From: Candidatus Omnitrophica bacterium UBA6215
Lineage (GTDB): Bacteria; Omnitrophota; Gorgyraeia; Pluralincolimonadales; Pluralincolimonadaceae
Direction: 5' to 3'
NCBI GenBank assembly: GCA_002421665.1
Contig: DISH01000003.1
Location: forward strand, 103,291-167,290
DNA: 64,000 nt
Under the pieces are notes generated by a model that worked only from the letters and a program-made list of their open reading frames with translations, was not told where the DNA came from and did not search any database. Below are positions 12,738-27,840 of this stretch, piece by piece. How positions within the stretch are numbered: the first letter of the stretch is position 1; the number at the start of each line of letters is the position of its first letter. The translations under genes were made by a program, and so were the position numbers.

Positions 12738-12738
12738 A

Positions 12739-13518: not shown

Positions 13519-13657
13519 TTCGAGTTAATAGATAATCAAAGAAAGATAACAATGTCAAAGATTATCGACCCCAACAAGATTAGAGTAGGCGATGTCATCC
13601 TTGTGGCCAGTGGTACAAGAGTTACCATCAACATTAAACAAAAACTCGGATAATAAA

Positions 13658-14878
13658 ATGGCAGACAATAACAAAGTTTATTCCCAGTCACGGTTAGGCT
13701 CATTTGACGATTGCAGGTTAAAATATAAGTATCATTATATCGACCATATCGAATCAGACATCAAAACCATCGAAGCCTTTCGCGGAAGCATGGTTCACAA
13801 GGTTCTCGAGGAGCTGTATAAACTCGTGAAGGCCGGTACAGTCAAGCCTCTTGAGTGGGCGGTTGGACTATATGACGATACTTGGAAGAAGAATTATCAT
13901 ACAGGAATAAAGATCGTTAAGAAAGGGGTTACCTTAGATGGTTATTATCAAAAGGGCAAAGAGGCCGTTATCAACTACTACGAGTGCTATAGCCCTTTTG
14001 ACCAGGCCAAAGTAGTCGATACCGAACGCAAGATCAGATTTACATTACGAAACGGCACGGAAGAATATGCTTTTTTAGGGATACTCGATAGGCTTGACTG
14101 GAATGATAAGGCCCAGATATTTGAAATTCACGATTACAAAACCACGTCTTCCCTCATGACCCAACAAGAGGCGGATACGGATTGGCAGCTTGGCCTCTAT
14201 CATATAGCTCTCAAGGAAAAATGGCCTGATATTAAGGATGTCAAACTCATATGGCATTCACTCCTATTTAATAAAGAGGTTATTTCATCAAGGACAGAGG
14301 TTCAGCTTGATTTGCTTCAGAAGGAAGTTATCGATGAAATAAAGAAGGTCGAAGAATGTACGGAATTTCCTCCAAAGAAAAGTGCTCTTTGCGATTGGTG
14401 CGAATATCAAGCGATGTGTCCCGCTTGGAAACATCCTAAGGCCATGGAAGAGCTCTCAGTTAACGAATACAAGAAAGACCCGGGCGTAATGCTGGTTTCA
14501 AAGTATGCAGATTTCGAAAATAAGAAAAAAGAGTTTAAAGAAAAAGTCGTTGAAATAGAACTTGAACAGAGTAAGCTTGAAGAAGCTGCGATAGAGTTTG
14601 CCGAGAAGAATAAAATCGCAATAATAGACGGCCCTGAAAATCAGCTTAAGGTCGATATAAAAGAAGAGCTAAGGGCCCCTACCAAAACAGAAGACGCGCA
14701 GTCATGGCAAGGCCTTAGAGATGCCCTTATAAAGGAAGGCAAATATAACGAAGTATCTACCGTCAATAACAACATGCTCAACTACCGCATACGCATATGG
14801 CCCAAGGAGTTTTTGAAAAAGATAGAAGCATTCCTTAAAAGACAGATAACAAAGTCAGTCAAGCTGATTAAAAAATAA
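13658..14878 (+). CDS. PD-(D/E)XK nuclease, Cas4/AddB-like with C-terminal 4-Cys cluster
   Basis: ORF 13592..14878, with the ATG at 13658 (MADNNKVYSQSRLGSF) preferred. Core motifs LDRLDW...EIHDYKTT (D..E.K) and C-terminal CDWCEYQAMCP plus an upstream Cys, a RecB/Cas4-like Fe-S arrangement. Confidence 0.65.
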   Translation: MADNNKVYSQSRLGSFDDCRLKYKYHYIDHIESDIKTIEAFRGSMVHKVLEELYKLVKAGTVKPLEWAVGLYDDTWKKNYHTGIKIVKKGVTLDGYYQKGKEAVINYYECYSPFDQAKVVDTERKIRFTLRNGTEEYAFLGILDRLDWNDKAQIFEIHDYKTTSSLMTQQEADTDWQLGLYHIALKEKWPDIKDVKLIWHSLLFNKEVISSRTEVQLDLLQKEVIDEIKKVEECTEFPPKKSALCDWCEYQAMCPAWKHPKAMEELSVNEYKKDPGVMLVSKYADFENKKKEFKEKVVEIELEQSKLEEAAIEFAEKNKIAIIDGPENQLKVDIKEELRAPTKTEDAQSWQGLRDALIKEGKYNEVSTVNNNMLNYRIRIWPKEFLKKIEAFLKRQITKSVKLIKK

Positions 14879-14965
14879 TTTTCTTGCTTTTTTTGAAGAT
14901 TAGATATATATTAATTCCGATGGCGACGAAAGTTGCCGAAAAACATAGGCTGTAAATTCAATTAA

Positions 14966-15018
14966 GGCCTGAAACTCTAATGATGCGCTAGTCAGCGCGA
15001 AAACTATAGAGTCAGGCC
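14966..15018 (+). repeat. Nested inverted repeat (compound hairpin) in the intergenic region
   Basis: Outer arms GGCCTGAAACTCTA / TAGAGTCAGGCC. Inner hairpin GCGCT-AGTC-AGCGC. Confidence 0.6.
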
Positions 15019-15055
15019 CTTTGTGTTGTAAGGGGACGCGAAGGGATCCTTCTCT

Positions 15056-15079
15056 GGAAAATTATTAAAACAATTTTCC
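15056..15079 (+). promoter_or_regulatory. Palindrome GGAAAATT-N8-AATTTTCC just upstream of the ParB-MTase start
   Basis: Perfect 8-bp inverted arms, 23 nt upstream of the ATG at 15102, between a putative promoter and the RBS GGAGGAGG. Confidence 0.4.
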
Positions 15080-15101
15080 CCTGCCATGGAGGAGGTTTCC
15101 G

Positions 15102-16367
15102 ATGGAAATCCGCAGAGTCCCTGTTTCAAAAATTAATCCCGCCTCGTATAATCCTCGCATTGACCTCAAGCCAGAAGATTCCGAATATCAAAAGCTGAAA
15201 GAAAGTATCGAAACTTTCGGATACGTAGATCCGATTGTTTGGAATGAATTGACTGGCAATCTTATTGGCGGCCACCAGCGTTTCAAAATCCTAGTTAGCC
15301 AAGAAATGAGGGAGATCGAGGTTAGTGTAGTTAGGCTATCTCTTGAAAAGGAAAAGGCTTTAAATCTCGCCTTAAATAAAGTTGTTGGCTCCTGGGATTA
15401 CGAAAAGCTATCTGCGCTTTTGGATGAATTATCAAAAATCCCCGATTTTGATATCAGCATTACCGGTTTTGGCGATTCAGAAATAAGTCAAATCTTCGAC
15501 CGTTATAGTAGCCAAAAAAATGCGGATGACTTTGATTTTGACAAAACCTTAAAAAATATCACCGTGCCAGTAACAAAACGGGGCGACATCATTAAACTTG
15601 GGCCTCATTTTGTTATGTGCGGAGATTCTGCCTGCGGAAACGATTTAAACGAGCTAATGCGGAATGAAAAGATCGATCTTGTGCATACAGATCCACCATA
15701 CGGTTGTTTATATCTTGCGCAAAATCGGCCTGATCTCGAATCCAGACCGAAAAAATCAAAGCGCTGGGAAAAGTTGTACAAGGACGACCTTAATGAAAAG
15801 GATTATGAGAAGTGGATAAAAAACGTTTTAAATAATATAAGATGTTATCTAAAGGAAGGTGCCTCGGCATATATTTGGAACGGGCATGCAAAGTTTTATT
15901 TTGTCCATCAGGTTTTAAAGGAATTGGGTTTCCACGTTTCAACCGTGATTACTTGGGCTAAACCTACCTTTGCCATTTCATACGGCAATTTTAACCAGCA
16001 GACGGAATTTTGCATTTTTTCGTGGCTTAAAAACGGTCCACACAAATGGTATGGTCCCACGAATGAAACTAATTTGTGGGAAATCAGCAGAGATAAAGCC
16101 TCTGAATTGATTCATCCGACGCAAAAAAGCGTTCAAATTCCATCGAGAGCGATCAGGAATAGCTCGATAAAAGGCGATATTATATTTGACGGGTTCCTCG
16201 GAAGCGGGTCTAGTTTAATTGCAGCAGAGAGTCTTGGGCGATGCTGTTATGGGATGGAAATAGAGCCGCGTTATGTCGACGCTATCGTCAAGCGCTACAT
16301 AGATTTTGTCGGCGCAGACAAAATTTCATCCGATATCCTTAACAAATATCGGAAGGAGGAGGCCTAA
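15102..16367 (+). CDS. ParB-like nuclease domain fused to a beta-class DNA methyltransferase (phage-type)
   Basis: 421 aa. N-terminal ParB-N-like region KINPASYNPR ... GGHQR. Methyltransferase motif IV VHTDPPYG and motif I FDGFLGSGSS. Confidence 0.75.
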   Translation: MEIRRVPVSKINPASYNPRIDLKPEDSEYQKLKESIETFGYVDPIVWNELTGNLIGGHQRFKILVSQEMREIEVSVVRLSLEKEKALNLALNKVVGSWDYEKLSALLDELSKIPDFDISITGFGDSEISQIFDRYSSQKNADDFDFDKTLKNITVPVTKRGDIIKLGPHFVMCGDSACGNDLNELMRNEKIDLVHTDPPYGCLYLAQNRPDLESRPKKSKRWEKLYKDDLNEKDYEKWIKNVLNNIRCYLKEGASAYIWNGHAKFYFVHQVLKELGFHVSTVITWAKPTFAISYGNFNQQTEFCIFSWLKNGPHKWYGPTNETNLWEISRDKASELIHPTQKSVQIPSRAIRNSSIKGDIIFDGFLGSGSSLIAAESLGRCCYGMEIEPRYVDAIVKRYIDFVGADKISSDILNKYRKEEA

Positions 16368-16368
16368 C

Positions 16369-17043
16369 ATGGAATCATCTAAATCCGATAACTCGAATAA
16401 ACCGGCAGTCCAACTGCTCAAGGAGATTGATTCATGCCAGACCGATCCAAGCTTGTTTGATAAGCCGGATCGCCAAAAATGCGTTGAACTCTTGATTTTG
16501 GAAGGTTACAGCTATGCACACATGGCACAGGTACTGAAGTGTTCCGAGAAGACCATTTCCCGAGACATGAAGGAGATTCGTGAGCGAAATGCGATCTCGC
16601 CTAATGTGCAATTCGCCAAAGAATTCATAGGCGATGTGTTCAGGAAGGCGATGAGCCAGCACGATCATCTCGTCCGCTTATCCCGCATGAAGGAGACTCC
16701 CGTAGCCGAGAGAATCCAGGCCACGTTTATGGCATGGAGGATATTGAAGGAACTCACTGAAAGATGCCAGTCTTTAGGTTATTTGCCTTTGCAGCCGCAG
16801 AAGGTCATTGGCGACATCTTTCACCATGTAGAAGAGTCCTCCGAGGCGTCATTCGAAGACATCCGAAAGACCATAAACGAGATCGAGACCATAACAAAAG
16901 AAACAGGAGGCGAGACACCGCAGTTTGCATCTGAGATAACTCAGTTGAAAGCACGACTTGAGAAGGCCCAGCTCGAATACGAGGCAAACAAACTTCTGGA
17001 AGCTCAATTCAAGAAGGAAAAAGACGATGGACCCGAAAATTAA
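16369..17043 (+). CDS. Terminase small subunit-like HTH protein
   Basis: ORF 16306..17043, with the ATG at 16369 preferred because it follows RBS GGAAGGAGGAGG and does not overlap the upstream gene. HTH segment YSYAHMAQVLKCSEKTISRDMKEIR. Position immediately upstream of TerL. Confidence 0.55.
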   Translation: MESSKSDNSNKPAVQLLKEIDSCQTDPSLFDKPDRQKCVELLILEGYSYAHMAQVLKCSEKTISRDMKEIRERNAISPNVQFAKEFIGDVFRKAMSQHDHLVRLSRMKETPVAERIQATFMAWRILKELTERCQSLGYLPLQPQKVIGDIFHHVEESSEASFEDIRKTINEIETITKETGGETPQFASEITQLKARLEKAQLEYEANKLLEAQFKKEKDDGPEN

Positions 17044-18634
17044 TGAAGGAGTATCCTCGGCAAGAAGGACGGCAGGGAAAGGCTCCATTTATACCTTTGC
17101 CGAGATATATATGTCGGACCACCTAAAATACAAGCCTTCACAGGTGCACAAGTATATATATGCTAAGCTTCAAAAGGCTTCAAATGTCAGAGGTACAAAA
17201 CTTGCCATTGCAGCGCCGAGAAATTTTGGAAAATCAACCCTTATCACGTTAATCTACATCCTCTACAGCATATGTTACGACAAGGAGAAATTCATAGTCG
17301 TAATCTCCAACACCGCCTATCAGTCGATGAGGATGCTCGATAACATTAAATCGGAGATTCTTAATAATGAAAAACTAAGAAAAGACTTTCCTCATGTATT
17401 TGGAGACAGCAAAATAAAACTTACTCGTTGGCAGCAAAATTGCATTATCACATGTAACGGTGTACAGGTATTGGTCTTGGGTTCCGGTCAGCAAATTCGG
17501 GGTCTTAGATATGGCATTAATAGGCCCACGCTTATTATTGCAGACGACCTTGAAAATACAAAATCCGTTCACTCGAGCAATATGCGCGAAAAGCTTAAGG
17601 AGTGGTTTTACAACTCGGTCTTAAAGGCTGGAGCCGAGGATACCAACGTTATCTTTATCGGTAATCTGTTCCACCCTTATTCTCTTTTAAGCGAATGTAT
17701 CGAGAATGCCACATGGACGAATGAGGTATATTCGGCGATAGAGACTTGGCCGACCAGGATGGATCTCTGGAACAAATTCGAGAATATATTGCGTGGAAGG
17801 GATAAAAGCGAGGGAGCCGTAGGAAGGGAGGCCGCACGAAAATTCTACGCGGGAAACGCCCAAGCTATGGATGCCGGGGCTAAGCTTCTTTGGCCGGAGC
17901 GCGACAACCTCTGCGATCTTATGGAAAAGTATTATGAGAATGAATTTGGTTTCATGGCGGAAATGCAAAATAAGCCGCGCAACCCAAAGGATTGTCCGTT
18001 TAATGTGGACGAATTCAGTTATTGGAGTGACAAATATAAATCTGCCAGGGAATTATTGCTAGCATCAGGTGATGGCGTTGATTTCTTCGGGGCATGCGAT
18101 CCCAGCATGGGAAAGAGTGATGACTCAGATAATTCTGCCATTATAGTTTTGGCGCGTGACAAGGACGGAGTTCTATATATCGTGGAAGCCGATATTAAAC
18201 GTAGGCAGCCCAACGAGATCATAGATGATATAATTACCTATCATAGAGCCTACAATTTTCAGTTATTTGCAGTTGAGTCCAATAATTTTCAAGAACTTAT
18301 GATTAAACAGCTTGAAGATAAAGCGAGAGCTATGAAGCAATATATACCAATCGAAAGAATAAACAACCGTTCAAACAAGGAAGCCCGTATAAAGTCGCTC
18401 CAATCGTTATTTCATAGAGGTACCGTATGTTTTAACAGAAACGACCTAGACCTTATCAATGAATGCGTGTATTTTCCAAAAGGGAAAAGTGATGACGGTC
18501 TAGATGCTCTTGAAATGGCCATTCATATTGCGCAGGAGCCAGGGGAGGTTAAAGTCTTGATTTGCGGAAGGGATAGAGATGATGATAATTGGCTAAGTGA
18601 TTATCAAAAGAATCTTGGCTGGCCAAAATTATAG
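17027..18634 (+). CDS. Phage terminase large subunit (ATPase + RNaseH-like nuclease)
   Basis: ORF 16958..18634, with the ATG at 17027 (MDPKINEG) and its RBS AAGGAAAAAG preferred. Walker A-like AIAAPRNFGKST. C-terminal nuclease-domain acidic residues FFGACDPSMGKSDDSDNSAIIVLARD. Confidence 0.8.
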   Translation: MDPKINEGVSSARRTAGKGSIYTFAEIYMSDHLKYKPSQVHKYIYAKLQKASNVRGTKLAIAAPRNFGKSTLITLIYILYSICYDKEKFIVVISNTAYQSMRMLDNIKSEILNNEKLRKDFPHVFGDSKIKLTRWQQNCIITCNGVQVLVLGSGQQIRGLRYGINRPTLIIADDLENTKSVHSSNMREKLKEWFYNSVLKAGAEDTNVIFIGNLFHPYSLLSECIENATWTNEVYSAIETWPTRMDLWNKFENILRGRDKSEGAVGREAARKFYAGNAQAMDAGAKLLWPERDNLCDLMEKYYENEFGFMAEMQNKPRNPKDCPFNVDEFSYWSDKYKSARELLLASGDGVDFFGACDPSMGKSDDSDNSAIIVLARDKDGVLYIVEADIKRRQPNEIIDDIITYHRAYNFQLFAVESNNFQELMIKQLEDKARAMKQYIPIERINNRSNKEARIKSLQSLFHRGTVCFNRNDLDLINECVYFPKGKSDDGLDALEMAIHIAQEPGEVKVLICGRDRDDDNWLSDYQKNLGWPKL

Positions 18635-18640
18635 ATAAAT

Positions 18641-18856
18641 TCAAAACTTCAACAACTCGGAGGGTTCAACCTTTAATGCCTTCGCAAGCCTTGCAATGGT
18701 GGTTAGCCTAACATCCGGAGGGGTATTTCCTTCAATTCTTTGGATGTATTTGTAGCTTGTTTTAGTAAGCTCAGATAGCCGCTCCTGCGTAATTCCACGC
18801 TTCTTGCGTAACTTTTTTATTTTCTTACCTAATTCTACCCCCACTGGATAACTCAT
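18641..18856 (-). CDS. XRE-family HTH transcriptional regulator (Cro/CI-like)
   Basis: 71 aa. ITQERLSELTKTSYKYIQRIEGN HTH. Confidence 0.75.
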   Translation of the reverse strand: MSYPVGVELGKKIKKLRKKRGITQERLSELTKTSYKYIQRIEGNTPPDVRLTTIARLAKALKVEPSELLKF

Positions 18857-18970
18857 ACGCCATATTATTACACGGTGTTATACTACTTGACACCCCCATA
18901 TATGATGGTGTAATATCATTGCAGTATGGGGCTGCAGAGGTCTTAAGCTTATCCATTACCAGGGAGGAAG

Positions 18971-19255
18971 ATGGGGATGAAAGAACTAATTGGAATACTG
19001 ATGATATTGCTGTCATTGATAGCAGCGACAGCATATGGCGAAGATGACGGTAAGGATAAAAACGTCAAACAGCCATCATCAGAGTGGATTGATGTCAACG
19101 AAAAGCCAACTTTTTTCGATACAATAGAAGTAGACGGGGTTAAACAAACCAGGTACATCTCTTATGAGGATAGGAAAAAGAAATACGAGGAATACGTTAA
19201 AATAAAGGATTCGCAAAGCCTAAAGACTCCCCGCCAAAATTTTAGCATCTATTAA
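18971..19255 (+). CDS. Small secreted hypothetical protein
   Basis: 94 aa with an N-terminal signal-like hydrophobic segment ILMILLSLIAATAYG. Follows a divergent promoter region shared with the XRE gene. Confidence 0.5.
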   Translation: MGMKELIGILMILLSLIAATAYGEDDGKDKNVKQPSSEWIDVNEKPTFFDTIEVDGVKQTRYISYEDRKKKYEEYVKIKDSQSLKTPRQNFSIY

Positions 19256-19362
19256 TAATCTACGTGTTTTAGTGTATTGACAAAGTAACAAATAGTGATA
19301 GACTAAACCTAATTAGAAGTCGTCCCGAATTTGAAGGGGACAACCTGGATGCTAAAAAATAA

Positions 19363-19404
19363 AACCTTCGTGAGTCGGATTGCGACTTGCGGAGGTTTTT
19401 TATT
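19363..19404 (+). terminator. Putative intrinsic terminator
   Basis: Imperfect hairpin CCTTCGTGAGTCG...CGACTTGCGGAGG followed by TTTTTTATTT. Confidence 0.45.
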
Positions 19405-19425
19405 TGATGGTTAATAGAAAAGATA

Positions 19426-19983
19426 ATGAAGATCCATCCTTTACATAAAATAGTGGGAAAATTTGTATTCGAAAAGTTTAGCTGCATGCCAGATTTTCTT
19501 ATAAAAAGAGATTTTGATTGTTGTCTCAAAAGTGAGCCAAAAGAACAGCTATCTCTTTTTACTCTTGGAAAATCATCGAGAATAACACGACTTTGTAAAG
19601 TTGATATACTTATAATTGTTAGAGGTGAGGTAAAAGTGATTATAGAAATTGAAGAATCAAGCATAATACCAACAAAGATATGCGGAAAGTTTCTTACTTC
19701 CAGACTTTCACGTTATTATATACCTTATAAGAAAAAAGAGATTCCAATTTCCGATAGGACATTGTTTGTTCAAGTTTTAAGCGAAGAACGGATCCCGGAT
19801 AAATCCTCTATTCAAAAGCAGTGGTTAAATATTGAAAACACTTTACGAGACATGAGAGATTTTAACGGAAGGAAGATGTCTTATAAGCTAATATTTGGGA
19901 AGGTCAAAAAATTTGAAGATACACATGCGCAGGAGCTAATCGGATATATAGAAAAATTTTTGCAAAATGCAAACAATGAATAA
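19426..19983 (+). CDS. Hypothetical protein, possible PD-(D/E)XK-like nuclease fold
   Basis: 185 aa. VDILIIVRGEVKVIIEIEES resembles a hhhD...hhEhK core. Overlaps the downstream gene by 17 nt. Confidence 0.5.
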   Translation: MKIHPLHKIVGKFVFEKFSCMPDFLIKRDFDCCLKSEPKEQLSLFTLGKSSRITRLCKVDILIIVRGEVKVIIEIEESSIIPTKICGKFLTSRLSRYYIPYKKKEIPISDRTLFVQVLSEERIPDKSSIQKQWLNIENTLRDMRDFNGRKMSYKLIFGKVKKFEDTHAQELIGYIEKFLQNANNE

Positions 19984-20584
19984 TGAAAATGACATTCTAA
20001 ATGAATTGATAAAACCCGATAGTCGGTGCAGCGTTTTTCATATAACTCTTAAGAGTTTGTCCGAGAAACTTGAAAAGATAAATCTAAATGATAATATTCC
20101 CAAGGAAATCTCAGAGCAAATAAGAATATGTAAAAAGTTATGTTTATACAGTTATTTCGTATATGAATTCGCCACTGTTGGCGAAGAACTATCATATCTA
20201 GCAATAGAGACAGCATTAAAGGAACGCCTGCGTCTATTTTATTTAGATGGTTTCGAATTTAAAAATCTAGAATCGGGATTAATTCAAAAAGAAAAGCCCC
20301 ATTCCCTGCCTCATTTTGAGTCATTACTTAGAAATGATATATTAAAATTTATGGGAGCTGAGGGTTTTTTCAAAAGAGGAATTAACATGTATGATTTAAT
20401 GAATTGGGCGATAGAGAAAGAGATATTGAAAGAAAGCTTTAAGGGGCAAGGAGCCGTGGTAAAAGATTTGCGTAATTTTGCGGCACATCCAAGTGGGCGT
20501 TCAATAAATATTCCCTGGAATGCTATTGATAGCCTAGCAAGGAATGTTAGTTTAATCAACTCGCTGTTTAGAGAAAAATTATAA
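19967..20584 (+). CDS. Hypothetical protein with HEPN-like Rx4H motif (possible abortive-infection/RNase component)
   Basis: 205 aa. C-terminal DLRNFAAHPSG matches the R-x4-H HEPN signature in a predicted helical context. Confidence 0.45.
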   Translation: MQTMNNENDILNELIKPDSRCSVFHITLKSLSEKLEKINLNDNIPKEISEQIRICKKLCLYSYFVYEFATVGEELSYLAIETALKERLRLFYLDGFEFKNLESGLIQKEKPHSLPHFESLLRNDILKFMGAEGFFKRGINMYDLMNWAIEKEILKESFKGQGAVVKDLRNFAAHPSGRSINIPWNAIDSLARNVSLINSLFREKL

Positions 20585-20728
20585 ACTCGAAGTAGGCAAT
20601 AGTCTTGCCGTAGCGCTAAATTTTTAAGCTGGTAAAAACGCGGATATGTCAAACAGGAGGATATGCCAGCCATTTGGGCGTGTATGCAATTAGCCGCCGT
20701 AGTCTTCCGCCTGCACAGGGGGTAGCAA

Positions 20729-21604
20729 ATGTCAAAATTCGAATTCAACTCTAAAAAAACCGATTTCGATCTATTAAATGCCCTTTGTATGGCCGAAAGT
20801 TCCCAGTTAGCCTATAAATCGGAGGCTGAAGTAAAGGAATTCCTTAACGCTAAGTGGGGGATATCAAGAATCAATACCTTTGACAAAGACGAAACCCAGG
20901 CGCTTCTTTGCTCAAATGATGAAGTGGCAATTTTAGCTTTCCGAGGAACGGATTCATTGAAAGATTGGCAGAAAGATTTTAATGCTGTACTTGTCGATTC
21001 AAAAGTAGGCCATATTCACAAGGGTTTTAAGCAGGCTCTAGATAATATATGGGAAAAGATCGACACAGCTCTTGCAGAACATATCAGGGAGGATAGATTG
21101 TTGTGGGTTACAGGCCATAGCCTAGGCGGGGCGCTAGCTACCCTTGCAGTTGACCGACTTACGGATTCCAAAATTCCCATTGGGGGAATGTATACGTTTG
21201 GAGGACCAATGGTAGGGGATGAAAAATTCGCTGATAATTTCGATCGTAAAATAAAAGAACACAGTTTCCGTTTTGTAAATGATGAGGATATAGTAACCTG
21301 GATTTCTTTGCCTGCTTTTTATCATCATATTGGGATCGAGTGCTTTTTTGATTGCGCAGGAGTTCTTCATCGAAAGCATGTATGGTATCACAAGCTTCTA
21401 AGCTATTCAGATAATGCCGAGGTGCGTTCCAGGCCAGAATTAGATAAATTAAAGGCGCAATATCCCAACGGCATTCAAGACCATAGTCTGGATTACTATA
21501 TTAAGTACCTCAAGAAGAATTTATTAGCCGAAAATCCTCCCGAACCGGAACAGAGGACATTTAAGGATTATGCAAATAGACTATTCAGAAAAGGAATTTC
21601 CTGA
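20729..21604 (+). CDS. Class 3 lipase (Lipase_3, alpha/beta hydrolase)
   Basis: 291 aa. ILAFRGTDSLKDW ... WVTGHSLGGALATL (GHSLG nucleophile elbow). Confidence 0.8.
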   Translation: MSKFEFNSKKTDFDLLNALCMAESSQLAYKSEAEVKEFLNAKWGISRINTFDKDETQALLCSNDEVAILAFRGTDSLKDWQKDFNAVLVDSKVGHIHKGFKQALDNIWEKIDTALAEHIREDRLLWVTGHSLGGALATLAVDRLTDSKIPIGGMYTFGGPMVGDEKFADNFDRKIKEHSFRFVNDEDIVTWISLPAFYHHIGIECFFDCAGVLHRKHVWYHKLLSYSDNAEVRSRPELDKLKAQYPNGIQDHSLDYYIKYLKKNLLAENPPEPEQRTFKDYANRLFRKGIS

Positions 21605-22668
21605 TGCGGCAGATAGCGGTCGAAACGAAATACCTCTTCTTAAGGCGCTTAAGTAGGCCAATAATTTTATTTCTTATCGTAGGTTTCTTCTTACTTCCAC
21701 GCGCTGCAATTTCAAATGACAATGTATGTCTCTCGTTAAAAAACCAGATCCGCCTTGGTTCTTTCAACATCGAAAAATTAGGCAAGGATAACTCTTTCCA
21801 AGCCAAAAACGCTGCCATAATACTTAAAAATTACGATATCGTAGCCATCCAGGAGGTTATGAACGCCGGCGCCAAGAAAAACAGCCCTATCGGCACAAAA
21901 GGCACCGATGCCCTAAAACAAATAGTAGCTTACCTTGGCGATGACTGGGCGTACGTGATAAGCCCGGTGCCTAACGGCACTTTGAGCGCAACAAATAGCA
22001 AGGCGTTCCATACATTTGAGTATTACGCCTTCATTTATAGAAAATCGAAGGTTGAGCTTATCCCGAATAGCGCCCATCTTTGGGATGAATCCAAGAATCC
22101 CATGCCGGGGTCAGATGATCAGAGCAGGCAATTCGACAGGCAGCCCTTTATAGCCTCTTTTAAGGCCAAGAATGGCAACCTCGACTTTACTTTAATAACA
22201 ATCCATGCGGCCGAACCTAAGGCCAAATGGCGCAAAGACGAGATAAGGCGCCTAAAGATCGTCTATGAGAAAGTCCAAAACGAAGATCCTGACCAGAATG
22301 ATGTTTTTCTAATGGGGGATTTTAATACAAATGTCGATAAGCCCGAATGGGATGATTTAAAGAGTATCCCAACCATGAAGCATATCCTTACTTCGAAAGA
22401 TATAACGACTTTAAATAAGAAAGAAGGGAAACTTTCAAACAGCCAATATGATACCATATGGTACCAGGGCAAATACAGTGATGAAGACATTGTCTCCGAC
22501 TCAGCGCAAATTGACCAGGCTTGGAAGGACTCGCTTGATATCCCCAATGTTAAGCCTAAAATAAACAGCAGCGATAAGGATCGTAAACTCATATGGTATT
22601 ACGGGAAGTATGCCTCTGACCATCTTCCCGTAACGGTTATTTTATGGACGGGAAAAGATACGGATTAA
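21604..22668 (+). CDS. Endonuclease/exonuclease/phosphatase (EEP, DNase I-like) family protein with N-terminal signal/TM anchor
   Basis: 354 aa. N-terminal hydrophobic segment PIILFLIVGFFLLP. EEP motifs IVAIQEV, LMGDFN, SDHLPV. ATGA start/stop overlap with the lipase gene. Confidence 0.75.
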   Translation: MRQIAVETKYLFLRRLSRPIILFLIVGFFLLPRAAISNDNVCLSLKNQIRLGSFNIEKLGKDNSFQAKNAAIILKNYDIVAIQEVMNAGAKKNSPIGTKGTDALKQIVAYLGDDWAYVISPVPNGTLSATNSKAFHTFEYYAFIYRKSKVELIPNSAHLWDESKNPMPGSDDQSRQFDRQPFIASFKAKNGNLDFTLITIHAAEPKAKWRKDEIRRLKIVYEKVQNEDPDQNDVFLMGDFNTNVDKPEWDDLKSIPTMKHILTSKDITTLNKKEGKLSNSQYDTIWYQGKYSDEDIVSDSAQIDQAWKDSLDIPNVKPKINSSDKDRKLIWYYGKYASDHLPVTVILWTGKDTD

Positions 22669-22693
22669 GCAACTATCTAAACTGCGCAAAATT

Positions 22694-23926
22694 ATGAAAA
22701 TACAAAATACCCTTAATAATATTTTTGATCAATATGATGTGGAAGAAAATAGAGTTACAAATTCTTTTCTTCAAACATTGACACGTAATCCAGATTTATT
22801 AAAGGAGTTTCTCTTCAAATATTTCAAGATTAGAATCGGCAGAAGTTCTAATGTCGAAATTAGCTCTCAAAAAGAACCTTTTTCTTCAGGAGATATTAAG
22901 GAAGTAAAAGAAAAGGTTGAAGGCATTCCCGATGGGTGGATAATAATAGATGATGCTATTGCCGTAGTGTTCGAATCTAAAATTTACAGAGATGCAATAA
23001 AACAGAGCCAATTGCTAGCTCATATAAAACGAATAAAAGGATATTCACAGAAATATTTATGCGTAATTACACCAGATGAAGAATCTCCTCTAAATGGTAT
23101 AGATATTGCGAATGTCAAGATTCAGTGGATCCCTTGGCGGGAAATTTATAGTCTAGTATCCAAGAATAAAGAGACTCAGAGCATTTCAGGTTATTTACGG
23201 AATCAATTAAAGGAGTATTTAGCCATGAAAGAAGATTTAGTGGGTTTTCAAGGCATAAATTATCCATCAGGAACATTTAATTCTAGGGAAGCGAAAATTA
23301 TTATCAAGAGCTTAATACGAGAAATCAAGCCGTATATTCAAAAATTTTATCCGGACCTAAAATATGAGAGAAAATCATATTCTCAGGATGTTCATCCATA
23401 CACAGTCTTCCATCGGAATACATGGTCTTTTCTAGGGACGAACGAGAATTTTACGAAGGATATACATATGACTTTTTGGTTGGCTGAAACCCATATGGGA
23501 ATAGGTCTGACTATTCCGAACGGCGCCGGGAAAAGATGGAAGAGATTGCGAAAAATATTTAAATCCGACGGCCTTTTTTATTCATTTATAGAAAAGTTGA
23601 ACATCTTGCGAGATAAAATGCCTAATCTTTATCTTGAATTCGTCCATAGACATTATCTAGGGCAGAGGGATGGCATTATCGATGGAATACTGGAAATGGA
23701 TTTGGATACCGTAAGGGGCAGAAAAGGGGTAAAAGCAAACAAGAGATGGTTAGAGGTATTAAGGGAGCTTGTTAAAAATAAAAAGGGATATAACGGCCAG
23801 CTAATGTTAAGAGTAAGATACTTTTATAAAGATTACTCCGAAATGCAAACGTCGGCCTTTAAGAATTTAGTAGTTGATACCGCTCACAAATTTAAGGATA
23901 TTTATAATTATTTAGTTGAAGAGTAA
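22694..23926 (+). CDS. Hypothetical protein with N-terminal PD-(D/E)XK-like nuclease core
   Basis: 410 aa. IPDGWIIIDDAIAVVFESKIY fits D...ExK. The rest is unassigned. Confidence 0.5.
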   Translation: MKIQNTLNNIFDQYDVEENRVTNSFLQTLTRNPDLLKEFLFKYFKIRIGRSSNVEISSQKEPFSSGDIKEVKEKVEGIPDGWIIIDDAIAVVFESKIYRDAIKQSQLLAHIKRIKGYSQKYLCVITPDEESPLNGIDIANVKIQWIPWREIYSLVSKNKETQSISGYLRNQLKEYLAMKEDLVGFQGINYPSGTFNSREAKIIIKSLIREIKPYIQKFYPDLKYERKSYSQDVHPYTVFHRNTWSFLGTNENFTKDIHMTFWLAETHMGIGLTIPNGAGKRWKRLRKIFKSDGLFYSFIEKLNILRDKMPNLYLEFVHRHYLGQRDGIIDGILEMDLDTVRGRKGVKANKRWLEVLRELVKNKKGYNGQLMLRVRYFYKDYSEMQTSAFKNLVVDTAHKFKDIYNYLVEE

Positions 23927-23953
23927 AATAGGAAAATAATTTAGAGGCCAAAA

Positions 23954-24814
23954 ATGGATAAAAAGAAAGATATCCCTTACGAAAAAGTCATAAAAGACTT
24001 AACTAGCATAACCGATAAATTTAAAGAAGTTAGTTGTTTTAAGAAAAAAGAGATAGAAGATATCGAACAGACGCGCAGACAACTAGATATTGTAAAGGAT
24101 TACTGGAAGGCAAATCCAAATCCACCTTCATCGTTAGCATATGCCACGCTTACCTCGGCGGCAAGCTATATTCATGAATTCAAAAGCTATGTCAACCACA
24201 TTGGTCCTTCAGAATTTACGGGTTCGCTTTTGGGAACCGCAATTAGTTCCGGCGATTCGATAGTGGCAACTGGCATGACCCTTTCGTATATCGCTCCAAC
24301 TAATGATGAGGCCGTTAAAAAAAAGTTAGAAGTTAAATTTGTTGAAATAAAAGAAGCTCCCAGAAGAAAAAACCGCAGAAAGGAAATCAAAAGATATCTT
24401 AAAAAATTATCCCCTCATTTGGCTTCTGCCTATGAAGGAGCATGGGAAAATCTCGAAACAAATTTTAGCGATTCGGAAAGAGGGGCTGCTTTTCTTATGA
24501 GAGAAGTGGTGTCGCAAGTTTTAGATATTTTAGCTCCAAAAGAGGCAATTAAAACATCAGATTTTATTCCTGACCCAACAGCAAAAGACGGTGTTACTCG
24601 AAAACATAGGTTAGAATACATAGCAACCCATAAGGCAAAAGGCAGTTTTAGCAAGGAATTATTAGATAGAAGTATTCAGGGTTTCTTGGATACTTACGAA
24701 GGTTTAAACGATGCCCATAAGAGAACTTTTCTTGATAAATCAAAAATAGAAAGTTTTTTATTTCAAGCCGATGATTTATTGCATACGCTTTTTAATTCGG
24801 TAATAATCGATTAA
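23954..24814 (+). CDS. Hypothetical protein
   Basis: 286-aa ORF with RBS-like AGAGG upstream. No recognisable family. Sits immediately upstream of the HNH gene. Confidence 0.5.
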   Translation: MDKKKDIPYEKVIKDLTSITDKFKEVSCFKKKEIEDIEQTRRQLDIVKDYWKANPNPPSSLAYATLTSAASYIHEFKSYVNHIGPSEFTGSLLGTAISSGDSIVATGMTLSYIAPTNDEAVKKKLEVKFVEIKEAPRRKNRRKEIKRYLKKLSPHLASAYEGAWENLETNFSDSERGAAFLMREVVSQVLDILAPKEAIKTSDFIPDPTAKDGVTRKHRLEYIATHKAKGSFSKELLDRSIQGFLDTYEGLNDAHKRTFLDKSKIESFLFQADDLLHTLFNSVIID

Positions 24815-24830
24815 ATTAGAGAGACAATTA

Positions 24831-25295
24831 ATGCCAGAATACACATCATCATATGCAAAAAATATAATAAAACGATCTCTACGAGAAATTATCGACCCTG
24901 GTCCTAGTAAGAAAGAAAAGCAAACAATCTGGGATTATTTTGGTTCGGAATGTGCTTATTGTGGTAAGAGACTACATAAAGGGCGTAGAGAAGGGCATAT
25001 TGATCATTTAGTTCCTAATGGTGCTAACCAGCTTTATAATCGGGTACTATCTTGCAAGGAATGCAACGGAGATGAGAAACGCGATAAATCCTGGAAGAGG
25101 TTTCTGGCGCAAAAGCGCTCGAATGTAAAGATCAAAGCCAAAAGAAAAGCGAAAATATTGCAGTGGCAAAAAAGGCATAAAAAGCCTATTTTTAGAAAAG
25201 GCGTTCTATCTAAAGTAGAATCTCTCCAGGATAATGTAATATCGTATTATGAGAGAAATGTAGAGAAGGCGAGAAGACTGCGAAACAAAAGGTAA
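24831..25295 (+). CDS. HNH endonuclease
   Basis: 154 aa. CAYCG ... HIDHLVP ... CKECN HNH/zinc-finger motif. Confidence 0.75.
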   Translation: MPEYTSSYAKNIIKRSLREIIDPGPSKKEKQTIWDYFGSECAYCGKRLHKGRREGHIDHLVPNGANQLYNRVLSCKECNGDEKRDKSWKRFLAQKRSNVKIKAKRKAKILQWQKRHKKPIFRKGVLSKVESLQDNVISYYERNVEKARRLRNKR

Positions 25296-25313
25296 TCTCG
25301 ATAGGTCAAAAGT

Positions 25314-26048
25314 ATGATTTCTGTAAATAGTGATGGTAAATTATGTGTCGGATGGGTTCAAAATGGCATAAACCATAAAAGATATTTTCGCTCTGAAAAG
25401 GAATCCGAACGTTTTCAGGAGATGGTAGTCGACATTCAGAATTGCATGAAGCTTTCTGAAGAGATGGAACGCTTTGCCAGGAATTTTAATTATGATCCAA
25501 AACTCGTTGAGCTAAAATTTGCACAACTTGGCAAAGAAATAGAAGAACTTAAAGAACGAATAAGAATCAAAGAATTGCTCCAAAAGAAACTCGGTATAGC
25601 GGCTCAAAGATTAGCCGACCAGCCAAGAAACGTAATCGACAAGGACGCCTTCTTTAAAGAAATAAAGCAGCTCAAGGTTGAAATTAATAGGCTGGATAGA
25701 TTCTTTAGGGAGCACGCCATCCTTTCTTTGCACAAATCTCTTCAAGAGACTCTTTCTGAAATGAAAGAGTATTTTATGTACCAAAAGGCGACCATTAAAA
25801 ACGTAGAAGAGATGTTTAAGCAGCTAAGAAAAGAGGTCGTTCAGAAATTTTCTAGCATAACGACTAAGGATAAAGTTTTGACTATAAAGGAGACCGCAGA
25901 ATATCTTGGCATAAGCTATTCGACTGTTCAGTCCATGATGTTCATGCAAGGGCTTCCCTATACAAGAGTAGGCAATAGGTATAGGATAAAAGAAAACGAT
26001 CTACAATCCTGGCTGGAAAAACGTAAGCAAAAAACGACAAGAACATAA
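25314..26048 (+). CDS. Excisionase/MerR-like HTH DNA-binding protein with central coiled coil
   Basis: 244 aa. C-terminal LTIKETAEYLGISYSTVQSM...GLPYTRVGNRYRI is an HTH_17/excisionase-type motif. Confidence 0.5.
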   Translation: MISVNSDGKLCVGWVQNGINHKRYFRSEKESERFQEMVVDIQNCMKLSEEMERFARNFNYDPKLVELKFAQLGKEIEELKERIRIKELLQKKLGIAAQRLADQPRNVIDKDAFFKEIKQLKVEINRLDRFFREHAILSLHKSLQETLSEMKEYFMYQKATIKNVEEMFKQLRKEVVQKFSSITTKDKVLTIKETAEYLGISYSTVQSMMFMQGLPYTRVGNRYRIKENDLQSWLEKRKQKTTRT

Positions 26049-26060
26049 TAAAAGGGGCGA

Positions 26061-26750
26061 ATGAAACTCTACAAATTTAGGCCACTTGAAGGCACTGAAC
26101 GTGACATAGATGGTAGTAACGACAGCAACTTTAAGCGCGCTAAAACAATTTTGGAAAATGGTGAGTTCTGGTGCTCTAAATTTTCAGAGCTCAACGATCC
26201 GATGGAAGGCGTATTCTATGGTTCAGCGGATTTAATCGATGCCATATATACAAAGAAGCTCCAGTATAAAATATGTTCTTTTTCAGCTAAAAGAGCCTTT
26301 GAAAAGCCCTACATGTGGGGATATTATGCGAATGGTTTTAAGGGCATGGCAATCGAGATTGAGGTAGACACCGGAGATGTAAAAGAAATATGTTATAGCA
26401 ATAAAATACCAAGCGTGGAATATTTAACAGCTTCTTGCAGAATGTATGGTGATGAAGTGATTTTAAAGATTCTCACGACTAAATCAAGTCCTTGGAAGCG
26501 CGAAGCAGAGTATAGGTTCTTGATAAAAGATGAAAAGAAATACCACAAAATAGGAGAAATCACTAAAGTATATTTTGGAAATCCTTATGGAGGGGTAGGG
26601 AATAAGAAACCCATTTATGAAAATAACCAAAACCTGCTAAACTATGACAAATTAAAAAAATATCTAATAAAGTTCGCAAATGAACGTAATATATGTTGTT
26701 ACTCTATTAAAATCAAAGATGGTAAAGTGCTACCCGATGAGAAATTGTGA
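26061..26750 (+). CDS. DUF2971 family protein
   Basis: 229 aa. N-terminal LYKFR...FWCSKFSELNDPMEG matches the DUF2971 signature. Confidence 0.55.
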   Translation: MKLYKFRPLEGTERDIDGSNDSNFKRAKTILENGEFWCSKFSELNDPMEGVFYGSADLIDAIYTKKLQYKICSFSAKRAFEKPYMWGYYANGFKGMAIEIEVDTGDVKEICYSNKIPSVEYLTASCRMYGDEVILKILTTKSSPWKREAEYRFLIKDEKKYHKIGEITKVYFGNPYGGVGNKKPIYENNQNLLNYDKLKKYLIKFANERNICCYSIKIKDGKVLPDEKL

Positions 26751-26798
26751 GCGAATTATGGCATAGATTTTCCCTAAAGCAAATCTTAGGAGATCGGC

Positions 26799-27437: not shown

Positions 27438-27598
27438 CTTAAAAAGTTGCGCAGTTTTGAGCCAAAATTGACCGGACAAAACGGACAAATTCTAGACTAT
27501 TTTGTCCGCTTAAATGACTGTTTCCCGGTCCGGTAGGCAGCGAGGAATAGTATCTCGGAGCTGGAATATTGCTTGATACGATAGGGTAGTACGGCTAT

Positions 27599-27840
27599 AA
27601 TACCCCTGTATAAAAGAGAGATACTTTATCGTAGTGAGACGGCCAACGGCCGCCATTACTTCCCCTATATAGGCGTAACGAAGTATGCCGAGTTCAGCCG
27701 TGGAGGATTCTGTAAGAATCCGACCGGCGTTTTGAACGAGGAATAAGGTGTATAGGCAAGCAGCAGGAGCGGTTAAGATGGGTAATTTACATTTATTATA
27801 GTAATCATAGGGCGTTAGGAAACTAACGCCCTTTTTATTT
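27599..27840 (+). ncRNA. Candidate small non-coding RNA (promoter-to-terminator unit, no plausible ORF)
   Basis: Sigma70-like promoter: TTGATA (27564-27569), 17 nt, TATAAT (27587-27592). A strong terminator lies at 27809-27840. The internal stem-loops include GGATTCT-GTA-AGAATCC nested in GTTCAGCCG...CGGCGTTTTGAAC. Only 7- and 16-codon ORFs are present. Confidence 0.4.
27809..27840 (+). terminator. Rho-independent terminator
   Basis: AGGGCGTTAG-GAAA-CTAACGCCCT followed by TTTTTATTT. Confidence 0.75.

What the first reader, a model, noticed from the sequence alone, without database searches (positions are those of the whole stretch)
19426..20584. Overlapping two-gene module: small PD-(D/E)XK-like protein + HEPN-like (Rx4H) protein
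The genes overlap by 17 nt (translational coupling). The upstream 185-aa protein has a VDILIIVRGEVKVIIEIEE nuclease-like core. The downstream 205-aa protein ends with DLRNFAAHPSG, matching the HEPN Rx4-6H RNase signature. A HEPN + partner pair in a defence island is the classic layout of abortive-infection/toxin-antitoxin modules. I cannot assign either protein to a named family.
Basis: partly seen in the sequence, partly recalled or inferred. Interest (0 to 1): 0.55.

Follow-up and report, generated by a model that had tools for sequence, protein, structure and literature searches.

The report
Restriction-like nuclease gene plus HEPN RNase gene
Two overlapping genes in a mobile defence island of an Omnitrophota bacterium encode an unannotated restriction-endonuclease-like protein and a divergent HEPN (DUF4145-like) RNase; both are real and probably defensive, but the pairing occurs only in this island, so this is a fairly ordinary new variant and not a conserved toxin-antitoxin module.

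Summary
Two same-strand ORFs (A, 19426-19983, 185 aa; B, 19967/19976-20584, 205/202 aa) overlap by 17 nt, or 8 nt from the more likely start. Both have many homologues and confident AlphaFold models.

B is a HEPN protein. R169-N-x3-H174 and E81-x3-K85 are invariant and sit where HEPN active-site motifs sit. The family profile reaches 1168 relatives. In a sample of 146, 25 match Pfam DUF4145 and 10 match other HEPN families. The only PDB sequence hit is the HEPN protein HI0074. B itself matches no curated model.

A belongs to an unannotated family of about 710 clusters in bacteria and archaea. It has a restriction-endonuclease-like predicted fold and a D60...E74-x-E76 motif.

The pairing is not conserved. 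B homologues sit between hsdM and hsdS of type I R-M operons (3 loci) or in other defence contexts. A homologues are solitary or precede swappable hydrolases: HD (7 loci), metallo-beta-lactamase (3), ERCC4 (1).

The A-antitoxin/B-toxin reading is unlikely. The best reading is a restriction-linked, latent HEPN RNase coupled here to a DNA-nuclease-like partner. Their functional coupling is inferred, not shown.

Verdict: new variant of a known kind, moderate interest.

The parts
19426..19983 (+). Gene A, 185 aa. It belongs to an unannotated family with a restriction-endonuclease-like fold. Invariant residues are H7, C32, C57, D60, E74, I75, P82, C86, G87, K88, F89 and L90.
   Evidence: ORF. 55, then 710, homologues with no Pfam domain. 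Alignment A2. AF2 pLDDT 93.7. Foldseek top hits are EcoT38I REase (E 0.018, prob 0.93) and the BFVD entry 'Restriction endonuclease' of Synechococcus phage S-CAM7 (E 2.8e-4, prob 0.99).
19603..19656 (+). Putative catalytic core of A: D60 (19603-19605) and E74-I75-E76-E77 (19645-19656), on adjacent predicted beta-strands. This is a D...ExE arrangement (as in BamHI), not the canonical D...ExK.
   Evidence: Invariant or nearly invariant columns in 35 sequences. Strands 55-59, 61-65 and 68-76 in the model. The BamHI comparison is from established knowledge and was not tested here.
19967..20584 (+). Gene B, 205 aa from the first ATG. The probable start is Met4 at 19976 (202 aa). It is a stand-alone, divergent DUF4145-like HEPN-domain protein and a predicted metal-independent RNase.
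   Evidence: gene and start. (model; top PDB fold hit is the 7ae6 HEPN toxin, weak). (profile reaches DUF4145 and other HEPN families). (the only PDB sequence hit is the HEPN protein HI0074, 1jog, E 0.0056, with motifs aligned).
20207..20221 (+). E81-x3-K85 of B. This is the HEPN helix-2 acidic motif (Ex3[KR]).
   Evidence: E81 and K85 are invariant in 17 sequences. E81 is at least 90% conserved in 147 superfamily members. It lies in predicted helix 68-91. The motif definition is in PMC3710099.
20471..20488 (+). R169-N170-F-A-A-H174 of B. This is the Rx4H HEPN catalytic motif, with a polar residue after R.
   Evidence: L168, R169, N170, H174 and P175 are invariant. R169, N170 and H174 are at least 90% conserved across 147 superfamily members. 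The motif lies at the end of predicted helix 161-173, with H174 in the loop before helix 183-200. This is the position described for HEPN in PMC3710099.
19361..19406 (+). Strong intrinsic-terminator-like hairpin (17-bp stem plus T-run) ending about 20 nt before A's ATG. A promoter-like site lies at 19277-19304. It may end the upstream 94-aa ORF's transcript, or it may be a leader/attenuator or small RNA preceding A-B.
   Evidence: scan. (fold -41.6 kcal/mol, z = -5.2). No Rfam family.
5400..30000 (.). Context: an integrated low-GC mobile island beside tRNA-Val/tRNA-Asp. Contents: large serine recombinase + DUF2924, Tsp45I REase + LexA/S24-MTase, patatin, MBL, PDDEXK_1/Cas4, ParB-MTase, TerS-like, TerL, HTH. 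After these comes a + strand cargo run: A, B, lipase_3, EEP, a 410-aa protein, pP_pnuc_1, HNH, HTH_17, DUF5677.
   Evidence: ORFs, tRNAs, GC. (Pfam/PHROGs). (the same island in three metagenome contigs). (host is Candidatus Omnitrophota).

Best explanation
Gene B encodes a latent, stand-alone HEPN ribonuclease of the DUF4145-like branch. By analogy with characterised HEPN enzymes, it should dimerise. It should use R169/N170/H174 together with E81 to cut RNA without metal, leaving 2',3'-cyclic phosphate ends. Once unleashed during infection, it should arrest translation (abortive-infection type defence).

Its family is a promiscuous accessory gene that is usually bolted onto DNA-restriction machinery. 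Most often it sits translationally coupled behind hsdM inside type I R-M operons. In this island the restriction-type partner is gene A, an unannotated restriction-endonuclease-fold protein with a BamHI-like D...ExE acidic site and a conserved His/Cys set.

A's own family behaves as a conserved upstream gene followed by interchangeable hydrolases: HD phosphohydrolase most often, then metallo-beta-lactamase/RMMBL, ERCC4, and HEPN here. The window pair is therefore best read as an 'A + swappable effector' cassette in which a HEPN RNase occupies the effector slot. A supplies DNA recognition or cleavage. B is the RNA-directed back-up.

Shown: gene structure, overlap, homology, motif conservation, predicted folds and contexts.
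Inferred: all enzymatic activities, dimerisation, latency and activation, and any physical or regulatory A-B coupling.
For: B is HEPN:
- R-N-x3-H and E-x3-K are invariant and conserved in 147 superfamily members.
[quoted passage not shown] This matches the published HEPN definition (PMC3710099).
- The family profile finds 1168 relatives. Of 146 sampled, 25 match Pfam DUF4145, 6 HEPN_RiboL-PSP, 2 HepT, 1 MAE_28990 and 1 Apea.
- The only PDB sequence hit of the superfamily profile is the HEPN protein HI0074 (1jog), with both motifs aligned.
- The top Foldseek PDB hit is the HEPN toxin 7ae6.
- DUF4145 proteins are proven defence RNases: RAZR (PMC13017515), BxaP (PMC10799925) and Ishtar.

B is linked to restriction:
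- hsdR-hsdM-[B]-hsdS occurs in L004, L007 and L016, with a 23-38 nt overlap onto hsdM.
- DUF4145 is known to be fused to REase domains and to occur in R-M operons.

A has a REase fold:
-, plus the acidic motif.

A has swappable partners:
- A homologous ~200-aa HD-domain protein (Pfam HD confirmed in L020, L033 and L069) sits downstream in 7 loci (L020, L022, L026, L033, L067, L069, L070).
- MBL/RMMBL in 3 (L028, L041, L065), ERCC4 in 1 (L021), ARPP-1 in 1 (L032).
- In 20 of about 50 distinct loci the downstream same-strand ORF starts between 43 nt before and 30 nt after A's stop.
- HD partners are about 80% identical across A clades that are only 37-40% identical. This argues for a retained A-partner link.
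Against: - The A-B combination was found only in this island (L001-L003 are the same element). No B-like ORF lies near any other A, and no A lies near any other B.
- About half of A loci show no tightly linked downstream gene, so A can act alone.
- In a related TerL-HTH-cargo island (L006), B sits among different genes without A. This fits independent cargo genes placed next to each other.
- No A-like domain is fused to any B-like domain.
- B does not reach any curated HEPN model directly.
- Fold matches are weak for B (E 1.6) and modest for A.
- No activity was measured.
Confidence: 0.5

Rival explanations
1. Independent neighbours. A and B are two separate single-gene defence or selfish cargo genes. 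They were packed head-to-tail in a cargo hotspot of the mobile island, and the overlap reflects only genome compaction. B works alone as an auto-inhibited HEPN RNase (like RAZR, activated directly by phage proteins). A works alone as a solitary nuclease, for example a modification-dependent one.
For: - The pairing is unique to this island.
- B occurs without A in 6 other contexts, including a homologous TerL-HTH island.
- A is solitary in many genomes, for example L011-L014.
- Characterised DUF4145 defence proteins are single-gene systems.
- The whole cargo run from 19.4 to 29.4 kb is same-strand with short gaps.
Against: - Both families tend to be translationally coupled to a specific class of neighbour. 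B overlaps hsdM in 3 loci. A has a closely spaced or overlapping downstream ORF in 20 of about 50 loci, 12 of which are HD, MBL/RMMBL or ERCC4 hydrolases.
- The A-HD link is retained across deep A divergence.
- B lacks the extra sensor domains (zinc finger, HEAT-like, C-terminal beta/alpha) of the characterised single-gene DUF4145 systems.
Confidence: 0.35
2. Type II toxin-antitoxin / classic Abi pair. B is a constitutively active HEPN toxin. The upstream protein A is its dedicated antitoxin and neutralises it by binding or modification.
For: - The layout is upstream-small-gene/downstream-toxin with overlapping codons.
- HEPN toxins are common in TA systems (PMC3710099). The top fold hit, 7ae6, is a HEPN toxin of a HEPN-MNT TA pair.
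Against: - A dedicated antitoxin should co-occur with its toxin. It does not.
- A is not a minimal nucleotidyltransferase. It has no NTP_transf_2 or other Pfam hit, and its fold is REase-like with a conserved catalytic-looking acidic site.
- A is larger and far more conserved than typical antitoxins.
- A partners with four or more unrelated enzyme folds, which a specific inhibitor could hardly serve.
- B homologues live without any A.
Confidence: 0.1
3. A is the endonuclease of a restriction-modification system whose methyltransferase lies elsewhere in the island (for example the ParB-N6_N4 MTase at 15102-16367). B is merely the R-M-associated HEPN guard, as in hsd operons.
For: - In L009/L010, A overlaps by 4 nt an 829-aa HsdM_N/N6_Mtase protein.
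- The fold matches type II REases.
- An orphan-looking MTase lies 3 kb upstream in the window.
- B's commonest context is R-M.
Against: - Most A loci have no adjacent methyltransferase.
- ParB-MTase fusions are typically orphan phage-type methylases (general knowledge).
- The A-HD and A-MBL pairings are not R-M-like.
Confidence: 0.05

Closest known systems
DUF4145 (Pfam PF13643) branch of the HEPN superfamily, as defined by Anantharaman et al. 2013 (PMC3710099)
   Same: [quoted passage not shown]
- Occurs in R-M operons and defence islands.
- Associated with REase-fold domains.
- 25 of 146 profile-detected relatives of B are Pfam DUF4145.
   Different: - B itself does not reach the DUF4145 model, even at E <= 1.
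- It has its own conserved N-terminal segment of about 45 residues (E13, D18, R20, F24) and a beta-hairpin-containing insert.
- The REase-like partner is a separate gene of an unrelated, unannotated family, not a fused domain.
RAZR / PD-T7-4 (DUF4145 HEPN RNase activated by assembling on phage ring proteins; PMC13017515)
   Same: - HEPN-like DUF4145-type RNase domain in an anti-phage setting.
- The same best structural neighbour (7AE6).
- The arginine and histidine of the motif are essential for defence in RAZR.
   Different: - B has no N-terminal Cys4 zinc-finger domain.
- It has no PADLOC hit at E <= 1.
- Its motif spacing is Rx4H, whereas RAZR has R146...H154.
- B is gene-coupled to a second protein.
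PrrC / RloC anticodon nucleases embedded in type I R-M loci
   Same: A HEPN RNase encoded inside hsd operons (B homologues in L004, L007 and L016). This suggests a latent RNase held in check by, or backing up, a restriction complex (HEPN assignment of PrrC/RloC).
   Different: - B is only about 200 aa and has no N-terminal ABC-type ATPase domain.
- In the window the neighbour is A, not an hsd gene.
- No sequence relationship to PrrC was detected.
HEPN-MNT type II/VII toxin-antitoxin pairs (e.g. 7AE6, HI0073/HI0074)
   Same: - Small stand-alone HEPN protein in a two-gene overlapping arrangement.
- HI0074 (1jog) is the only PDB sequence hit of the superfamily profile, and 7ae6 is the top fold hit.
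   Different: - The partner is not a nucleotidyltransferase.
- The partner is upstream with a REase-like fold.
- The pair is not conserved.
Small type II restriction endonucleases with a D...ExE site (BamHI-type) and other PD-(D/E)XK nucleases (EcoT38I, Mrr, XisH, MmcB, VRR-NUC)
   Same: - Predicted alpha-beta-beta-beta-alpha-beta core with an acidic residue after strand 1 and ExE on the next-but-one strand.
- These nucleases are the best fold hits in PDB and BFVD.
   Different: - No profile-level similarity to any PD-(D/E)XK Pfam family.
- The canonical lysine is replaced by glutamate.
- An invariant His/Cys set (H7, C32, C57, C86) of unknown role is present.
- There is usually no cognate methyltransferase.

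Membership tests
HEPN superfamily | Rx4-6H motif with a polar residue (N/D/H) right after R | tested here: met
   R169-N170-F-A-A-H174. R, N and H are invariant in 17 family members and at least 90% conserved in 147 superfamily members. Definition from PMC3710099.
HEPN superfamily | Motif located at the end of helix 3 / start of the loop to helix 4 of an all-alpha four-helix core, often with an insert between helices 2 and 3 | tested here: met
   The AF2 model (pLDDT 83.9) has helices 46-61, 68-91, 161-173 and 183-200, with an insert at 92-160. R169-A173 end helix 161-173 and H174 is in the loop. This was judged from secondary structure only, because model coordinates could not be inspected.
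HEPN superfamily | Conserved acidic residue in helix 2, typically Ex3[KR] | tested here: met
   E81-T-A-L-K85 in helix 68-91. E81 and K85 are invariant. E81 is at least 90% conserved in the superfamily.
HEPN superfamily | Significant sequence or structure similarity to recognised HEPN domains | tested here: met
   - Transitive sequence link: 35 of 146 profile hits match Pfam HEPN-clan families.
- The superfamily profile hits only HI0074 (1jog) in the PDB, at E 0.0056, with motifs aligned.
- The direct fold search is weak (7ae6, E 1.6, prob 0.30; 1wwp at rank 18).
HEPN superfamily | Metal-independent RNase activity | not testable with these tools
   Needs biochemistry.
DUF4145 (PF13643) | Protein scores above the Pfam gathering threshold for PF13643 | tested here: not met
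   B has no Pfam hit, even at E <= 1. Only its remote relatives do (25 of 146, best E 1.5e-6). It is therefore filed as 'DUF4145-like' and not as a member.
RAZR / PD-T7-4 | N-terminal Cys4 zinc-finger domain plus C-terminal DUF4145, and a match to the PADLOC model | tested here: not met
   No PADLOC hit. B's N-terminus is helical with no CxxC pairs. Architecture from PMC13017515.
PrrC/RloC R-M-linked anticodon nucleases | N-terminal NTPase domain fused to a C-terminal HEPN ACNase; encoded within an hsd locus | tested here: not met
   B is a 202-205 aa single domain. The hsd linkage holds for homologues but not in the window.
HEPN-MNT toxin-antitoxin | Adjacent minimal nucleotidyltransferase partner | tested here: not met
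   A has no NTP_transf_2 or any other Pfam hit, and its fold matches REases.
Two-gene TA/Abi module (generic) | The two genes co-occur as a conserved pair across genomes | tested here: not met
   A and B are adjacent only in this island. 0 of 6 other B contexts have A and 0 of about 50 other A loci have B. The sample is limited by look-up caps.
PD-(D/E)XK nuclease superfamily (protein A) | alpha-beta-beta-beta-alpha-beta core fold | tested here: met
   The AF2 model (pLDDT 93.7) has helix 5-18, strands 55-59, 61-65 and 68-76, helix 82-94 and strand 106-119. Best fold hits are EcoT38I (E 0.018, prob 0.93), XisH, the S-CAM7 'Restriction endonuclease' (E 2.8e-4, prob 0.99), Mrr, MmcB and VRR-NUC. 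TM-scores are only 0.35-0.5.
PD-(D/E)XK nuclease superfamily (protein A) | Catalytic D ... (D/E)xK motif on strands 2 and 3 | tested here: inconclusive
   D60 and E74-x-E76 are invariant or nearly so, but the lysine position is glutamate. An invariant K88 lies in the following helix. ExE variants exist (BamHI; established knowledge), so the site may be active. This is not shown.
PD-(D/E)XK nuclease superfamily (protein A) | Profile match to a family of the Pfam PDDEXK clan | tested here: not met
   No hit for A or 44 relatives. No PDB sequence hit. UniRef labels one member (P0128) 'Type I restriction enzyme R protein N-terminal domain-containing'. This label was not reproduced with current Pfam.

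The most novel reading that the evidence does not exclude
The A family (about 710 clusters in bacteria and archaea, no annotation) could be the conserved sensor/nuclease subunit of an undescribed modular two-gene defence system. In that system a fast-evolving restriction-endonuclease-fold protein is translationally coupled to interchangeable effectors: HD phosphohydrolase, metallo-beta-lactamase/RMMBL nuclease, ERCC4 nuclease, and the HEPN RNase found in this window. The window pair would be its HEPN-effector variant.
Probability: 0.2. Interest if true: 0.6.

Novelty: new variant of a known kind. Interest (0 to 1): 0.38.

Why it matters
If B is active, it adds a compact, stand-alone branch to the DUF4145-type HEPN RNases. 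These are only now being characterised (RAZR, BxaP, Ishtar). B shows this branch hopping between type I R-M operons, kinase/Hsp70 clusters, cyclase-linked loci and mobile-island cargo. That gives material for asking how a sensor-less HEPN is kept silent.

The more useful by-product is protein A. It belongs to a widespread, unannotated restriction-fold family whose tightly linked downstream gene is swapped among several hydrolase types. That pattern is typical of defence systems and could be tested directly.

Neither point overturns current understanding.

Tried and rejected
- **Curated-library scans of A and B.** Pfam, PADLOC, NCBIfam and PHROGs gave no hits.
- **PDB sequence search with family profiles.** Nothing for A. 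Only chance hits for the narrow B profile.
- **Rosetta-stone test.** I looked for A-like domains in 41 longer B-like proteins. hmmsearch found nothing below E 0.09. hhalign of A against three groups of extra domains gave probabilities below 1%. Rejected.
- **Distant B-like HEPN next to other A genes.** A search with the broad superfamily HMM found none.
- **UniRef's 'HsdR N-terminal domain' label for one A homologue.** It could not be reproduced.
- **Rfam search of 18.5-21 kb.** Done to test for a type III antitoxin RNA or another RNA upstream of A. It returned only a chance lncRNA hit. No tandem repeats were evident by eye in the leader.
- **gyrA downstream of A in Methanoperedens (L037, L048).** Treated as housekeeping adjacency and not as a partner.
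- **HEPN-MNT and PrrC membership.** Rejected on architecture.
Full report
**1. Observation**

The window holds two same-strand ORFs, A (19426-19983, 185 aa) and B (19967-20584, 205 aa), exactly as described.
- The quoted peptides are present. VDILIIVRGEVKVIIEIEE is A residues 59-77. DLRNFAAHPSG is B residues 167-177, which is about 28 residues before the C-terminus and not at the end.
- From the first ATG the overlap is 17 nt. Gene callers on identical metagenome contigs start B at Met4 (19976, 202 aa), and homologues begin MEDQILNEL. The likely overlap is therefore 8 nt.
- Both ORFs are genuine genes. B has 17 close homologues (E down to 1e-128) and A has 55, rising to 710 with a profile.
- The AlphaFold2 models are confident: pLDDT 83.9 for B and 93.7 for A.

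**2. Setting**

The host is a Candidatus Omnitrophota MAG. The pair lies in a low-GC island (0.36-0.40 against 0.53) from about 5.4 to 30 kb, beside tRNA-Val/tRNA-Asp. The island contains, in order:
- a large serine recombinase plus DUF2924;
- a Tsp45I restriction enzyme with a LexA/S24-methyltransferase fusion;
- patatin, an MBL protein, a PDDEXK_1/Cas4 nuclease and a ParB-methyltransferase;
- TerS-like and TerL genes and an HTH regulator;
- a same-strand cargo run: a 94-aa ORF, A, B, lipase_3, an EEP nuclease, a 410-aa protein, pP_pnuc_1, HNH, HTH_17 and DUF5677.

The same island is present in several metagenomes. 'Defence island on a mobile element' is a fair description.

**3. Protein B is a HEPN protein**

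B hits no curated model: Pfam and PADLOC even at E <= 1, NCBIfam at E <= 0.1 and PHROGs at E <= 0.01. Four independent lines still place it in the HEPN superfamily.
- *Motifs.* L168-R169-N170-x-x-A173-H174-P175 and E81-x3-K85 are invariant or nearly invariant in the family (A173 nearly so). P45, Y66, E81, A83, R169, N170 and H174 stay at least 90% conserved across 147 distant relatives.
- *Predicted structure.* The model has helices 46-61, 68-91, 161-173 and 183-200, with an insert at 92-160. E-x3-K therefore sits in helix 2. R-N-x3-H sits at the end of helix 3, running into the loop to helix 4. This is the arrangement Anantharaman et al. describe for HEPN active sites (PMC3710099).
- *Profile search.* An exhaustive search with the family profile finds 1168 relatives. 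Of 146 sampled, 25 match Pfam DUF4145, 6 HEPN_RiboL-PSP, 2 HepT, 1 MAE_28990 and 1 Apea. No unrelated family recurs.
- *Solved structures.* The superfamily profile hits a single PDB sequence, the classic HEPN protein HI0074 (1jog, E 0.0056), with both motifs aligned. The best Foldseek PDB hit of the model is the HEPN toxin 7ae6, though only at E 1.6. 7AE6 is also the structure used for superposition with the RAZR DUF4145 domain.

I therefore call B a DUF4145-like HEPN protein with an intact catalytic set. I do not file it as a DUF4145 member, because it fails that model directly.

**4. Protein A is restriction-endonuclease-like**

A's family has no annotation. There are no Pfam hits for A or for 44 relatives, and no PDB sequence hit.
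- The model has an alpha-beta-beta-beta-alpha-beta core: helix 5-18, strands 55-59, 61-65 and 68-76, helix 82-94 and strand 106-119.
- D60 lies between the first two core strands and E74-I-E76(-E77) lies on the third. An invariant PTKICGKFL helix follows.
- The best structural neighbours are restriction or PD-(D/E)XK nucleases. In the PDB they are EcoT38I (E 0.018, prob 0.93) and XisH. In BFVD they are a cyanophage 'Restriction endonuclease' (E 2.8e-4, prob 0.99), Mrr, MmcB and VRR-NUC.
- The canonical lysine is a glutamate. This resembles BamHI's D/E/E site (established knowledge, not tested here).
- An invariant H7/C32/C57/C86 set hints at a metal site, but I could not inspect coordinates.

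'PD-(D/E)XK-like' is supported at the fold level only.

**5. Is it a module?**

I recovered seven distinct contexts for B:
- three type I R-M operons, with B between hsdM and hsdS and overlapping hsdM by 23-38 nt (L004, L007, L016);
- an Hsp70-kinase-FHA cluster (L017);
- a related TerL(40% id)-HTH-cargo island with Abi_C (L006);
- a locus behind a DACNG-DACNH-DAC cyclase-type protein, for the closest homologue at 82% identity (L062);
- the window itself.

None except the window has A.

Conversely, none of about 50 A loci from bacteria and archaea has B or any distant B-like ORF. No protein fuses A-like and B-like domains.

**6. What the A contexts do show**

A is often followed, from a 43-nt overlap to a 30-nt gap, by a hydrolase gene that differs between loci:
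- a ~200-aa HD-domain protein in seven loci (L020, L022, L026, L033, L067, L069, L070);
- a metallo-beta-lactamase/RMMBL protein in three (L028, L041, L065);
- ERCC4 in one (L021) and ARPP-1 in one (L032);
- an HsdM-like methyltransferase in one (L009).

The HD partners are about 80% identical even where their A proteins are only 37-40% identical and belong to different A clades. The A-partner link is therefore retained while A diverges. Within the window's own A clade the partners are HD (3 loci), MBL (1) and HEPN (the window). About half of A loci have no tightly linked downstream gene, so A can also stand alone.

**7. Mechanism**

I commit to the following reading. B is a latent HEPN RNase acting as an abortive-infection style effector. 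It normally rides on restriction machinery, following the logic of PrrC/RloC and of R-M-linked DUF4145. In this island it is translationally coupled to a restriction-fold protein, A, and occupies the 'swappable hydrolase' slot behind A.
- Shown: genes, overlap, homology, motif conservation, predicted folds and neighbourhoods.
- Inferred: RNase and nuclease activities, dimerisation, latency and trigger, and any A-B interaction.

The main rival, at 0.35, is that A and B are independent cargo genes that happen to abut. A dedicated toxin-antitoxin pair is unlikely (0.1), for three reasons. The pair is not conserved. A is not an MNT-type antitoxin. One inhibitor could hardly serve HD, MBL, ERCC4 and HEPN partners. 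A as the endonuclease of an R-M system with a distant methylase is possible but poorly supported (0.05).

**8. Comparison with known systems, and novelty**

B works like DUF4145-type defence RNases: RAZR/PD-T7-4, BxaP and Ishtar. It lacks their extra domains and fails their models. It resembles PrrC/RloC in its R-M linkage but lacks the ATPase domain. It resembles HEPN-MNT toxins in size but lacks the MNT partner.

REase-DUF4145 fusions and R-M operon linkage are already described. A separate REase-fold gene coupled to a stand-alone DUF4145-like HEPN is therefore a new variant of a known kind and not a new category.

The most novel reading still open is that the A family defines an undescribed modular 'A + interchangeable effector' defence system (probability about 0.2).

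**9. Limits**
- Model coordinates could not be inspected.
- Context sampling was capped: 12 contig look-ups, plus 43 genome and 3 metagenome loci.
- Most contigs carrying the closest homologues are short.
- No activity is demonstrated.

Noticed in passing
window 19277-19406 (+): A promoter-like site (TTGACA-16 nt-TAGACT with a TG extension, 10/12) is followed by a small hairpin. Next comes a 17-bp-stem terminator with a T-run (19361-19399) ending about 20 nt before A's ATG. The fold energy is -41.6 kcal/mol (z = -5.2). It could be a ~90-nt small RNA, a leader/attenuator for A-B, or just the terminator of the 94-aa ORF at 18971-19255. No Rfam family matches.
   Followed up: partly
window 7894-10447: A Tsp45I-type restriction enzyme (7894-8664, +) is paired convergently with a 599-aa fusion (8648-10447, -). 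The fusion has a LexA DNA-binding domain, a Peptidase_S24 autoprotease and an N6_N4 DNA methyltransferase. Its methylase is wired to a LexA-like self-cleaving repressor.
   Followed up: no
window ~5400-30000: A low-GC integrated element lies beside tRNA-Val/tRNA-Asp. It has a large serine recombinase + DUF2924, a TerS-like protein and TerL (phrog_38, E 7e-108), but no capsid, portal or tail genes were detected. A homologous TerL-HTH-cargo arrangement with different defence cargo occurs in L006. This suggests a family of satellite-like or degraded-prophage elements with a cargo hotspot downstream of terL.
   Followed up: partly
L062:184-1887 and L070:261-1112: The closest B homologue (82% id) sits directly behind a DACNG-DACNH-DAC (diadenylate-cyclase-type) protein. 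One A-HD pair sits behind a GGDEF/Cas10-palm-like protein (PADLOC Cas10, E 1.9e-6). These links hint at nucleotide signalling for both families.
   Followed up: no
window 22694-23926 (+) and 28723-29412 (+): The unannotated 410-aa protein has a textbook PD...ExK-like string (IPDGWIIIDD...VVFESK). The 229-aa protein matches DUF5677 at threshold, and DUF5677 also turned up in one distant B-like HEPN relative. The island may therefore hold further nuclease and HEPN-like genes.
   Followed up: no
L020, L022, L026, L033, L067, L069, L070 (genes downstream of A homologues): The ~200-aa HD-domain proteins next to A homologues are 77-87% identical to each other across loci whose A proteins are only 37-40% identical (Omnitrophota, Syntrophaceae and unbinned metagenomes). 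Conservation is unusually asymmetric within a gene pair.
   Followed up: partly
L037:1338-3923 and L048:5541-8087: In two Methanoperedens genomes the A homologue lies directly upstream of gyrA, with a 4-nt overlap in L037. This is an odd housekeeping neighbour for a defence-island gene.
   Followed up: no
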